Shown piece by piece: positions 12,529-15,500 of a stretch of DNA of 64,000 nt. The stretch lies in assembly GCF_009931435.1 (NCBI RefSeq), contig NZ_CP043414.1. One strand, written 5' to 3'. Every line of letters begins with the position of its first letter. Position 1 is the first letter of the stretch. The position numbers are program-made. The stretch comes from Escherichia coli. GTDB lineage: Bacteria > Pseudomonadota > Gammaproteobacteria > Enterobacterales > Enterobacteriaceae.

Positions 12529-15500
12529 TGAGATGGAAAAAGAGCAGCTGATTGAAATAGCCAATACGATAATGCCGTTTGGCAAATACAAAGGGCGTCG
12601 CTTAATCGACCTGCCGGAGGAGTATCTTCTGTGGTTTGCCCGCAAAGATGAGTTCCCGGCAGGGAAGCTCGGTGAGCTAATGCAAATCACGCTGCTGATT
12701 AAAACCGAGGGGCTGACGCAACTGGTCCAGCCCCTGAAACGCCCACTTTAAGCTTTATCGGCGCTGCTTTCCTGCTGCGCCTGTAACTGTTCGGTCTGGC
12801 GTTTGTATCGACGCGCCAGCACCGCACAGACCATCAATTGGATCTGATGGAAAATCATCAGAGGCAGCACCATCATACCGATCACCGATGTGGGGAACAG
12901 AATGTTTGCCATCGGGATGCCATTTGCCAGACTCTTTTTCGAACCACAAAAGACGATAGTAATTTCATCTGCCTTATTGAAGCCCAGTCGGCGTGCCATA
13001 AAGACGTTAACTACAATCACGATAGCCAGAAGAACGCAGCTAACCACCACGATAAATAGCAATGATCCCCAGCCAACTTTATGCCAGATGCCGTTAACGA
13101 CGGCTTCGCTGAACGCAGTATAAACCACCAACAGAATGGACGTCTGGTCAGTTTTCGCAATCCATTTTTTATTTCGTGACACCCAGTTGCCAATCCAAGG
13201 GCGAGAAAGATGTCCCAGCACAAACGGCAGCAGCAGTTGCAGCATTATCTTACCTACCTGCTCAAGGCTGCCCCCTGCACCGTGAACATTCATCACCAGG
13301 CCAACCAGCAACGGTGAAAGGAAAATCCCCAGTAGGCTGGATGCTGACGCAGAACAAACCGCCGCCGCGACGTTACCGCCCGCCATTGACGTGAAGGCGA
13401 TTGCAGACTGCACGGTCGCGGGGAGAATGCACAAGTAGAGAAAACCGGAGTAGAGCATCGGGTCGACATTTACCGGTTTCCACCAGGCAAACAGCACGCC
13501 CAGAATTGGAAACAGCACGAAGGTGCTGCACATTACCCACAAATGCAGTCGCCAGTGACCACCGCCAGCAATAATCGCCTCACGCGACAACTTCGCGCCG
13601 TGCATAAAGAACAGCAGAGCAATAGCTGCGGTAGTCAGATTTTCAAAGAAGGGAACGAAATCGCCCCTGGCCGGAAAGAAAGAGGCCAGCAACACCACCG
13701 TGATCAGGGTTAAGGTGAAAGGATCGAGGATACGAAAAAGTTTCATAAAGACTCCAGATGAACGATGCTTTCATTGTGCGTTCTTCTGATTGATAAATAA
13801 AACTGAATTGCTTAACAATTTGTGCGCGATAATGGAGAGTGAGTGGGGGCTCGCTTCGACTGGCGGGCTGAGTTGGGCAAGCAAATCCGAACGAATCAAA
13901 TAAGGGCGGTCAATGAGTGCGCTTGATGACCGCTGTAATATTATTGCTGACGACCGTAGCCGTTTTAGTGTTATCAACGCAGGCTTAGAACTGATATTTT
14001 ATTGAATAAATAATGCCATCCTGGAGGAAGGCTTCACCCAGTTTATTATCTGCGTAGCGATATTGAATCCCTGCCGTAAAATGCGGTGTCGCATTCCACC
14101 AAAACGCTACTGCTCCGTTTATACCTTCTTTTCCGCCATTACCTGCTGCATATGTAGCGTCGCGGTCAAATTCGTATTCATTCCAGTTAGTCAGGCTGAA
14201 TTTTTCGCTACCAAGCGTGAAACTGTATCCGGCAACCCAGCCCAAAACATAGCCATTGTCACCGGTATAATAGGTTTGATCGGTGTAACGTTTCGCGAAG
14301 AATGGCTTAAACCAGTAACCATTTCCCGTAAAATTGTATCCAAGCCCGTAAAGGAATGTATCATCATAGAAGTTAACACGTTCAGGTGAACCGTAAGTCC
14401 CGTAAGCGTGAAGATAAAGATTCAGTCCTGTATCACCAAGATAAATGCGGTTGGTACTTTTAAAAGTATAACGTTGTTCACTGCCAGATTTTGAATGTCG
14501 GCCATTATAGAAGTTCTCCCAATCGAAGAACCCGTACATTTCTCCCCAACTAAAGTTAGCACCACCTTCTAATTCCAGATAGCCAAAATCATCTTTATGG
14601 GACTTATTACTGGTTTTCTCTGTCGTGCGGGATGTCCAGTCAAGATAATGCAGACCAATGTCAGCAAAGCCCCCTTTAAACTCGGCATAAGACATTTGCG
14701 GAAAAGCCATGGGAACCAGACCAAGGCTTAATGCAAGAAGCTGTTTTTTCATAGTATGTTCCACTTAAGTAATAAATTTAATGAATGTGATATGCTTACA
14801 TATTTATGCTGTAATTATTTGGCATGTCTATTTTATTAGATTTATGACAGCTCTAACCAATACATAATTATCACGTAATGATAGGGTGTCGATCTGAATG
14901 TCTTCAGGATTGATATCAAATTGCAATTGATATCCGTGGTAAAAAGTATTGGTAAATGTGATGAATTTCCGGTTATTTAAAGGGGGCTCAAAGTCGAAGG
15001 AGAAGATGGTGAATCTAAAACTACAATTAAAAGTACTTTCATTTCTGCAATTCTTTTTGTGGGGAAGTTGGCTCAATACATTCGGTTCCTATATGTTTAT
15101 CACGCTGCGTTTTAAAGGCGAGGATATTGGTGCAGTCTATAGTACCTTGGGTATTGCAGCATTAATAACATCAACGTTATTTGGTATCGTGGCCGATAAA
15201 TGGATTAGTGCTAAATGGATATATGCCGCTTGTCATTTATTTGGCGCGATAACATTATTTGTCGCTGCATCGGTTACCACGCCTTCGGCAATGTTCATTG
15301 TCATTTTACTTAACTCTCTCGTGTATATGCCAACGCTCGGTTTGAGTAATACAATTTCCTATTACCGCATACAAACTGCGGGGATGGATATTGTGACAGA
15401 ATTTCCACCAATCCGTATTTGGGGCACGATTGGATTTATTGTCGCGATGTGGGCGGTGAGTTTGGCAGGTTTTGAATTAAGTCATATGCAATTGTATATC

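What the first reader, a model, noticed from the sequence alone, without database searches (positions are those of the whole stretch)
13747..13984. Only 238 bp between yfeH and yfeN; LysR regulator yfeR recalled from K-12 is absent
In K-12 I recall a LysR-type regulator gene (yfeR) divergent from yfeH and lying between yfeH and yfeN. Here the interval is 238 bp with no credible ORF (only a 68-aa minus-strand ORF with no recognisable features). If real, yfeH would lack its dedicated regulator in this strain, and the deletion is adjacent to the acquired nucleoside module, hinting at a rearrangement hotspot.
Basis: partly seen in the sequence, partly recalled or inferred. Interest (0 to 1): 0.3.

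Follow-up and report, generated by a model that had tools for sequence, protein, structure and literature searches.

The report
yfeR missing: old alternative haplotype
This E. coli strain really does lack the LysR regulator gene yfeR next to the transporter gene yfeH. The cause is not a fresh deletion: the strain carries a rare, old alternative version of the whole yfeH-to-tRNA-Lys region, also seen in E. albertii, so this is an ordinary gene-content polymorphism.

Summary
yfeH (12748-13746, minus strand) and a Tsx/OmpK-family porin gene (13985-14752, minus strand) lie 238 bp apart, with no yfeR and no yfeR remnant. In K-12, yfeR sits exactly there.

The absence is not a local deletion. Identity to K-12 is 96.7% up to 13809 and 97.8% from 20589. 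In between, the sequence is only 68-77% identical or cannot be aligned. The window therefore carries a 6.8-kb alternative haplotype: 175-bp spacer, divergent porin gene, extra nucleoside permease, deoxyribosyltransferase-like gene, and divergent xapA/xapB/xapR.

Among 5,426 complete E. coli genomes, 5,409 have yfeR. Seven carry this haplotype, including IAI39 and CE10. Nine carry a derivative with the porin gene deleted. All 15 genomes that carry the permease/transferase genes lack yfeR genome-wide. E. albertii shares the same left junction.

A 29-bp palindrome-containing element is identical in three yfeR-bearing lineages. It has lost its right half in every yfeR-less haplotype. The predicted yfeH core promoter region is retained, and YfeH is 330/332 identical to K-12.

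The likely consequence, which is inferred and not shown, is that yfeH is expressed without YfeR control. This is an ordinary polymorphism of low interest.

The parts
12748..13746 (-). yfeH, an SBF-like / bile acid:sodium symporter family transporter. It is intact at 332 aa.
   Evidence: ORF list. Pfam PF13593 at 379 bits. 330/332 aa identical to K-12 YfeH although the DNA is only 96.7% identical, which indicates purifying selection.
13747..13984 (.). The 238-bp yfeH-porin intergenic interval, which is the finding itself. K-12 has the 89-bp intergenic region, yfeR (927 bp) and a further 38 bp at this position.
13747..13812 (-). The yfeH-proximal part, still homologous to the K-12 yfeH-yfeR intergenic region. 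It is near-identical up to about 13767 and about 67% identical from 13768 to 13812. It holds the counterpart of the yfeH promoter predicted for K-12: -10 TGAAAG at 13768-13773 and -35 TTATCA at 13791-13796, both read on the minus strand.
   Evidence: Alignments, and blastn. K-12 promoter prediction TTCTCA-17-TAGAAC from PMC3946193. The mapping onto the window is my own reading of alignment A5.
13795..13809 (.). Degenerate remnant of the conserved palindromic box. yfeR-bearing lineages have ATAAAATTGATTTAT (ATAAA-N5-TTTAT, a T-N11-A type). Here it reads ATAAAACTGAATTGC, so the right half-site is lost.
   Evidence: Alignment A5. A 29-bp stretch containing the box is identical in K-12, L004 and the outgroup L010. 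It is altered in the same way in the window, IAI39, type C E. coli and E. albertii.
13810..13984 (.). 175-bp haplotype-specific non-coding spacer lying 3' of the porin gene. It has no detectable relation to yfeR.
   Evidence: It occurs only at this locus, in 16 of 5426 genomes, once per genome. There is no Rfam match. Its folding energy is ordinary (z = -0.51). No similarity to yfeR was found.
13906..13933 (-). Hairpin GCGGUCA-(14 nt)-UGACCGC followed by CCUUAUUUGAUU on the minus strand. It is a possible but weak terminator for the porin gene.
   Evidence: MFE fold and inverted repeat I7. The consensus terminator scan did not call it. It is not conserved in the type C haplotype.
13985..14752 (-). 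Divergent yfeN allele (Tsx/OmpK-family outer-membrane channel, called ompK' here).
   Evidence: NCBIfam NF008574 at 434.8 bits against a cutoff of 282. 76.8% nucleotide and 84% amino-acid identity to K-12 yfeN. Annotated as OmpK in R32_14_1F and IAI39.
15009..17246 (+). Two extra genes absent from K-12: an MFS nucleoside permease (15009-16262) and a 309-aa nucleoside 2-deoxyribosyltransferase-like protein (16317-17246). GC is about 42%.
   Evidence: TIGR00889 at 635.8 bits. PF05014 at 60.8 bits. Annotation. GC content. Present in only 15 of 5426 genomes.
17475..20581 (+). Divergent xapA' (17475-18308), xapB' (18366-19622) and xapR'-like LysR regulator (19697-20581). They are 72-77% identical in nucleotides to K-12 xapABR.
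   Evidence: XapR' is 78% identical in amino acids to K-12 XapR and only 26% to YfeR.
20589..20708 (-). Right boundary of the divergent haplotype. Identity to K-12 returns to 97.8% from 20589, just before tRNA-Lys (20633-20708) and three tRNA-Val genes.
   Evidence: blastn and ARAGORN.

Best explanation
The 238-bp interval is the yfeH-porin spacer of a rare, old alternative haplotype of the chromosomal segment between yfeH and tRNA-Lys.

In this haplotype, yfeR and the distal half of a conserved palindromic box in the yfeH-yfeR control region are gone. About 65 bp next to yfeH survive, including the predicted core promoter. The rest of the interval is 175 bp of haplotype-specific non-coding DNA that serves as the 3' flank of a divergent yfeN-type porin gene. 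The same haplotype carries an extra nucleoside permease, a deoxyribosyltransferase-like gene and divergent xapA/xapB/xapR.

Shown: yfeR is absent from the locus, from the window and from the whole genomes of the closest relatives. The junction is shared with E. albertii and with a second E. coli sub-haplotype. yfeR at this position is the ancestral enterobacterial state, because an outgroup and a cryptic-clade Escherichia have it there with an identical box.

Inferred: yfeR was lost once, long ago, in an Escherichia lineage. The haplotype reached or persisted in a few E. coli lineages by homologous recombination through the conserved flanks, or as an ancient polymorphism. yfeH is now transcribed from its basal sigma-70 promoter without YfeR control, possibly with read-through from the co-oriented porin gene upstream.
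For: - **Sharp identity breaks.** Identity to K-12 is 96.7% up to 13809 and 97.8% from 20589, with 68-77% or no alignment in between.
- **Frequency.** yfeR is found in 5409 of 5426 complete genomes. This exact arrangement occurs in 7. The spacer sequence occurs in 16, always at this locus.
- **Mutual exclusion.** The 15 genomes with the permease/transferase genes have no yfeR anywhere.
- **Type C.** These genomes (L006-L009) have the same left junction and a homologous but 20-25% diverged spacer. They keep only an 18-aa C-terminal remnant of the porin.
- **E. albertii.** It has yfeH, a spacer of about 620 bp, then permease, transferase and xap'. Its junction matches the window as far as 13834.
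- **Ancestral state.** The outgroup L010 (77-82% identity) and the cryptic-clade L004 (about 91%) have yfeR between yfeH and yfeN.
- **Conserved box.** A 29-bp box is 100% conserved in yfeR-bearing lineages and half-lost in all yfeR-less ones.
- **yfeH is maintained.** YfeH is 330/332 identical to K-12 at 96.7% DNA identity.
- **Promoter.** The K-12 yfeH promoter prediction maps inside the retained 65 bp.
- **Composition.** GC is 42% for the porin, permease and transferase genes against 51-55% for the flanks.
Against: - No expression data exist. The retained promoter hexamers are weak (-10 TGAAAG) and differ from K-12.
- That the palindromic box is the YfeR operator is inferred from conservation only.
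- The history of the adjacent module is unresolved. L004 combines yfeR and a K-12-type yfeN with the permease/transferase/xap' genes. It could be the ancestral form or a recombinant with a crossover inside yfeN.
- Genome-wide absence of yfeR was shown for the closest complete genomes, not for the window's own genome, of which only 64 kb is available.
- Genome-wide absence in E. albertii was not tested.
Confidence: 0.8

Rival explanations
1. A recent, strain-specific deletion of yfeR by illegitimate recombination in an otherwise K-12-like locus.
For: yfeR is missing and the interval is short. The locus does suffer deletions in other strains: a porin-gene deletion in type C and IS1-associated loss in VE-T9.
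Against: The same junction is present in 16 complete genomes and in E. albertii. The spacers of the two sub-haplotypes differ by 20-25%. The 175 bp beyond the junction is not K-12 sequence, and the neighbouring yfeN is a 77%-identical allele. No microhomology or yfeR remnant was found.
Confidence: 0.04
2. The yfeR-less order is ancestral for Escherichia, and yfeR was inserted or restored in the main E. coli lineage.
For: E. albertii, an early-branching Escherichia by my own knowledge, lacks yfeR at this locus. The permease/transferase/xap' genes fall in identity in the order type C (95%), L004 (91.7%), E. albertii (86%). This resembles vertical descent.
Against: An outgroup at 77-82% identity has yfeH-yfeR-yfeN-xapA-xapB-DUF1427-xapR in the K-12 order, with an identical 29-bp control box. 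The cryptic-clade L004 has yfeR at 93% identity to K-12, the divergence expected for vertical descent. The yfeR-less intergenic regions retain a decayed half of the box, as expected after loss and not before gain.
Confidence: 0.08
3. yfeR is not lost but has been relocated or replaced by a functional analogue elsewhere, for example the LysR gene at 19697-20581.
For: A LysR-family gene lies 6 kb away in the same haplotype.
Against: That protein is 78% identical to XapR and only 26% to YfeR, and K-12 has both genes. There is no yfeR-like DNA elsewhere on the 15 related chromosomes and none in the window.
Confidence: 0.03
4. An assembly or sequencing artefact has collapsed the region.
For: None specific.
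Against: The identical architecture appears in seven independently sequenced complete genomes, including IAI39 and CE10.
Confidence: 0.01

Closest known systems
K-12 yfeH-yfeR-yfeN-xapABR locus (haplotype A)
   Same: The flanks (ligA, ypeB, yfeH on one side; tRNA-Lys, tRNA-Val, gltX on the other) are the same. So are the gene families, in the same order and orientation: Tsx-family porin, xapA, xapB and a xapR-type LysR gene. The first ~65 bp upstream of yfeH are homologous.
   Different: This haplotype has no yfeR and has lost the right half of the conserved palindromic box. The porin and xap genes are only 72-77% identical in nucleotides. There are two extra genes (nucleoside permease, deoxyribosyltransferase-like). 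There is no DUF1427 small ORF between xapB and xapR.
E. coli IAI39 / CE10 / R32_14_1F locus (haplotype B)
   Same: The architecture is the same. The 238-bp interval is 98.9-100% identical and the nucleoside genes are 99.6-100% identical.
   Different: The differences are allelic only. The window's ligA and yfeH alleles are 96% identical to IAI39 but 99.3-99.7% identical to R32_14_1F.
Type C haplotype (E. coli Z1323HEC0423, GF4-3, LHM10-1, CP52E and others; E. albertii)
   Same: yfeR is absent, the left junction is the same, the spacer is homologous, and the permease, transferase and xap' genes are the same.
   Different: The porin gene is deleted, leaving only a short C-terminal remnant in E. 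coli and none detectable in E. albertii. The spacer is 20-25% diverged. IS1 is inserted in E. albertii TW07627 and in VE-T9.
LysR-type regulator with a divergently transcribed target (classic LTTR arrangement, e.g. Salmonella yfeR-yfeH, Banos et al. 2011, cited in PMC11227560)
   Same: In yfeR-bearing lineages the locus has the textbook layout: a divergent gene pair, an 89-bp intergenic region and a T-N11-A palindrome next to the target's -35 element.
   Different: Here the regulator and half of the box are missing. Only the target gene and its core promoter region remain.

Membership tests
yfeR (LysR-type regulator) present at the yfeH-yfeN interval | An ORF of about 308 aa with HTH_1 and LysR_substrate domains, divergent from yfeH | tested here: not met
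   The only ORF in the interval is a 68-aa minus-strand ORF with no Pfam hit. tblastn with YfeR gives a best E of 0.34 over 14 aa.
yfeR (LysR-type regulator) present at the yfeH-yfeN interval | A pseudogene remnant detectable at the DNA level | tested here: not met
   Local alignment of 13810-13984 against yfeR from K-12, L004 and L010, both strands, gives z from -1.2 to +1.2 relative to shuffles. blastn at word size 7 finds nothing.
yfeR ortholog elsewhere in the genome | yfeR-like DNA (at least about 85% identity) at another position | tested here: not met
   None in the 64-kb window. None on the 15 chromosomes carrying the linked nucleoside genes, including R32_14_1F which is 100% identical across those genes. 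The window's own complete genome is not available.
YfeN / PRK11528 Tsx-family outer-membrane channel | Score above the NCBIfam equivalog cutoff and a full-length match | tested here: met
   NF008574 at 434.8 bits against a cutoff of 282, covering model positions 1-254 of 254. PF03502 is found in its homologs. It is nevertheless a divergent allele, 84% identical in amino acids to K-12 YfeN.
LTTR operator (T-N11-A palindrome) in the yfeH control region | An intact inverted repeat ATAAA-N5-TTTAT, as in yfeR-bearing lineages | tested here: not met
   The window has ATAAAACTGAATTGC, with the right half-site lost. The box is intact and embedded in 29 identical bp in K-12, L004 and L010. Binding by YfeR has not been demonstrated with these tools.
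Intrinsic terminator between the porin gene and yfeH | A GC-rich hairpin followed by a U-tract | tested here: inconclusive
   There is a 7-bp stem with a 14-nt loop followed by an interrupted U-tract at 13906-13933. The consensus scan did not call it.
Mobile-element-mediated deletion or insertion at the junction | An IS or MITE sequence, terminal repeats, or multiple copies of the spacer in the genome | tested here: not met
   The spacer occurs once per genome and only at this locus. No meaningful repeats flank it. IS1 is present only in derivative variants: VE-T9 and E. albertii TW07627.

The most novel reading that the evidence does not exclude
The yfeR-less haplotype may be an ancient polymorphism or introgression shared across Escherichia species in which yfeH has been rewired. 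With yfeR gone, the porin gene and yfeH are co-oriented and separated only by a weak hairpin. The BASS-family transporter YfeH could then be partly co-transcribed with the nucleoside-uptake genes.

Lineages such as IAI39, CE10 and E. albertii would also be natural yfeR nulls. If the published YbfA-YfeR-FNR-NapA circuit (PMC11227560) is general, these lineages should show de-repressed fnr and napA and altered anaerobic biofilm formation.
Probability: 0.12. Interest if true: 0.4.

Novelty: new member of a known kind. Interest (0 to 1): 0.18.

Why it matters
The main value is as a correction. What looks like a small deletion is the edge of a 6.8-kb alternative haplotype, so annotation transfer from K-12 (yfeN, xapABR, yfeR) is unsafe for this strain.

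It also identifies natural yfeR-null lineages, including the ExPEC strains IAI39 and CE10 and E. albertii. These could be used to test published claims about YfeR: osmoregulated control in Salmonella, and the YbfA-YfeR-FNR biofilm circuit in K-12.

The comparison of yfeR-bearing and yfeR-less intergenic regions also points to a candidate YfeR operator (ATAAA-N5-TTTAT).

Tried and rejected
- **Remnant of yfeR in the interval.** I looked with tblastn at E up to 1000, blastn at word size 7, and Smith-Waterman alignment against shuffles. Nothing was found.
- **Mobile, repeated or RNA-coding spacer.** The spacer is single-copy and locus-specific, has no Rfam hit, has ordinary folding energy and has no flanking repeats.
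- **Donor of the divergent porin gene.** The closest protein cluster (P0001, 89% identity, labelled Salmonella) sits in a K-12-like locus that contains yfeR. Its DNA is only 78% identical, no closer than K-12, so no donor was identified.
- **xapR'-like LysR gene as a displaced yfeR.** Rejected: 26% identity to YfeR against 78% to XapR.
- **Origin of the extra genes.** The origin of the extra genes outside Escherichia therefore remains unknown.
- **Literature.** Searches for the haplotype (deoxyribosyltransferase + IAI39; yfeN/xapA/albertii) found nothing relevant.

Full report
**Observation**

The window around the finding reads ligA (10516-12531, +), ypeB, yfeH (12748-13746, -), a 238-bp gap (13747-13984), then a Tsx/OmpK-family gene (13985-14752, -). 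It has no Pfam match, and an indel in related sequences breaks its frame.

In K-12 MG1655 the same stretch is yfeH | 89 bp | yfeR (927 bp, divergent) | 38 bp | yfeN.

K-12 YfeR finds nothing in the whole 64-kb window by tblastn (best E = 2.1). Neither permissive tblastn nor local DNA alignment against yfeR from three lineages finds a remnant in the gap (z between -1.2 and +1.2 against shuffles).

**What is really there**

The absence of yfeR is one edge of something larger. Against K-12, the window is 96.7% identical up to 13809 and 97.8% identical from 20589 onward. Between those points it is 68-77% identical or cannot be aligned.

This 6.8-kb segment contains:
- a 175-bp spacer;
- a yfeN-family porin gene, 76.8% identical in nucleotides and 84% in amino acids to K-12 yfeN, but above the NCBIfam equivalog cutoff;
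- an extra MFS nucleoside permease and a 309-aa protein with a nucleoside 2-deoxyribosyltransferase domain;
- xapA, xapB and a xapR-type LysR gene at 72-77% nucleotide identity to K-12.

The LysR gene encodes a protein 78% identical to XapR and only 26% identical to YfeR, so it is not a displaced yfeR. The porin, permease and transferase genes have about 42% GC, against 51-55% for the flanks. The right boundary lies just before tRNA-Lys (20633-20708).

**Frequency and relatives**

Among 5,426 complete E. coli genomes, 5,409 contain yfeR. Only seven have the window's arrangement:
- R32_14_1F (99.7% identical over 12700-15000)
- 2020CK-00188
- AR_0013
- CE10
- IAI39
- N32
- OZ546943

.

Fifteen genomes carry the permease and transferase genes. 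I searched with a chimeric query made of those genes plus K-12 yfeR. Each of the 15 chromosomes gave a single match. The union of matching genomes was 5424 = 5409 + 15. The two features are therefore mutually exclusive, and yfeR has not moved elsewhere in these genomes.

The other eight module-bearing genomes form type C (four were inspected as L006-L009). They have yfeH, a spacer of about 630 bp, then the permease gene. Against the window they show a 647-bp internal deletion of the porin gene (window 14050-14696). They keep an 18-residue C-terminal remnant of the porin and a spacer that is homologous to the window's but 20-25% diverged.

A ninth genome, VE-T9, is a further derivative. IS1 has replaced the permease, transferase and xapA genes and part of xapB.

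E. albertii also has yfeH, a spacer of about 620 bp, then permease, transferase and xap', without yfeR or the porin gene. One strain has IS1 in the permease gene. Its sequence aligns with the window through the yfeH-proximal junction as far as 13834.

**Polarity of the change**

A record labelled Salmonella enterica (L010) is 77-82% identical to E. coli here. It has the K-12 order yfeH-yfeR-yfeN-xapA-xapB-small ORF-xapR.

A GTDB species representative at about 91% identity (L004, labelled E. coli SCPM-O-B-8794, presumably a cryptic-clade Escherichia) has yfeR at 93% identity to K-12. It also has a yfeN that is K-12-like over its 3' 600 bp. Further along it continues into the permease, transferase and xap' genes.

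yfeR between yfeH and yfeN is therefore the ancestral state, and its absence is a loss.

The history of the adjacent genes is not resolved. L004 could be the ancestral Escherichia arrangement, or it could be a recombinant with a crossover inside yfeN. Type C E. coli strains have ordinary E. coli ligA and yfeH alleles (98-99% to K-12), yet their nucleoside genes are 5% diverged from the window's. The haplotype family is therefore older than typical within-species divergence, or it entered E. coli more than once.

**Control region**

I aligned the yfeH-proximal intergenic DNA from eight sources. The three yfeR-bearing lineages share 29 identical bases, TTTGAGAAATAAAATTGATTTATTGCATC, even though the outgroup differs at about 20% of positions elsewhere. 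This stretch contains the palindrome ATAAA-N5-TTTAT, a T-N11-A motif of the kind LysR-type regulators bind (general knowledge of the family).

In every yfeR-less sequence (window, IAI39, type C, E. albertii) the left half is kept and the right half is lost. The window reads ATAAAACTGAATTGC at 13795-13809. Alignability to K-12 ends at about 13812.

A genomic SELEX study predicted the K-12 yfeH promoter as TTCTCA-17-TAGAAC (PMC3946193). Its counterpart in the window is TTATCA-17-TGAAAG at 13768-13796, which lies inside the retained segment.

YfeH is 330/332 identical to K-12 although the gene differs at about 33 nucleotide positions. It is therefore under purifying selection and presumably expressed.

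**Mechanism, with shown and inferred steps marked**

Shown:
- the regulator gene and half of its probable operator are absent;
- the target gene and its core promoter region are intact;
- the arrangement is old and shared across lineages.

Inferred:
- yfeH is transcribed constitutively without YfeR input;
- because the porin gene and yfeH are now co-oriented, and separated only by a weak hairpin (13906-13933), some read-through from the porin gene is possible.

The literature adds two leads. YfeR is an osmoregulated LTTR in Salmonella (Banos et al. 2011, cited in PMC11227560). In K-12 it is reported to repress fnr downstream of YbfA during anaerobic biofilm formation (PMC11227560). If so, lineages with this haplotype are natural nulls for that circuit. 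This is a prediction, not a result.

**Verdict**

yfeR is truly missing and the locus is structurally unstable, with at least five arrangements. However, this is an inherited alternative haplotype, not a local deletion next to an otherwise K-12-like yfeN.

No paper describing the haplotype was found. It is nonetheless an ordinary gene-content polymorphism that is visible in public annotations. Interest is low.

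Noticed in passing
window 16317-17246: The 309-aa 'nucleoside 2-deoxyribosyltransferase' matches Pfam PF05014 only over residues 41-106 and has no NCBIfam hit. About 200 C-terminal residues are unassigned. In the GTDB species representatives it was found only in two Escherichia loci.
   Followed up: partly
window 10516-13746 (ligA, ypeB, yfeH): The window's ligA and yfeH alleles are unusually divergent for E. coli: about 96% identical to K-12, IAI39 and type C strains, but 99.3-99.7% identical to strain R32_14_1F. This suggests that recombination has also affected the left flank.
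   Followed up: partly
L004 7668-8447: In the cryptic-clade Escherichia representative, yfeN is a mosaic. Its 3' 600 bp are K-12-like (86-99%). Its 5' end and promoter are window-like (94-100%). This marks a crossover point between the two haplotype families inside the porin gene.
   Followed up: partly
L016 6280-7606 (E. coli VE-T9); L011 5888-6391 (E. albertii TW07627): IS1 insertions erode the nucleoside genes. In VE-T9, IS1 replaces the permease, transferase and xapA genes and part of xapB. In E. albertii TW07627, IS1 interrupts the permease gene.
   Followed up: partly
window 19623-19696 and 20582-20650: The K-12 small DUF1427 ORF between xapB and xapR is absent here (the gap is only 74 bp). 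K-12 also has about 155 bp of extra RtT-repeat sequence between xapR and tRNA-Lys that the window lacks.
   Followed up: no
E. coli genome collection: Two of the 5,426 complete genomes have neither yfeR nor the permease/transferase genes (VE-T9 is one). Four more have only a partial yfeR, for example EC24.26 with 77 bp. These are independent yfeR lesions and were not examined.
   Followed up: no
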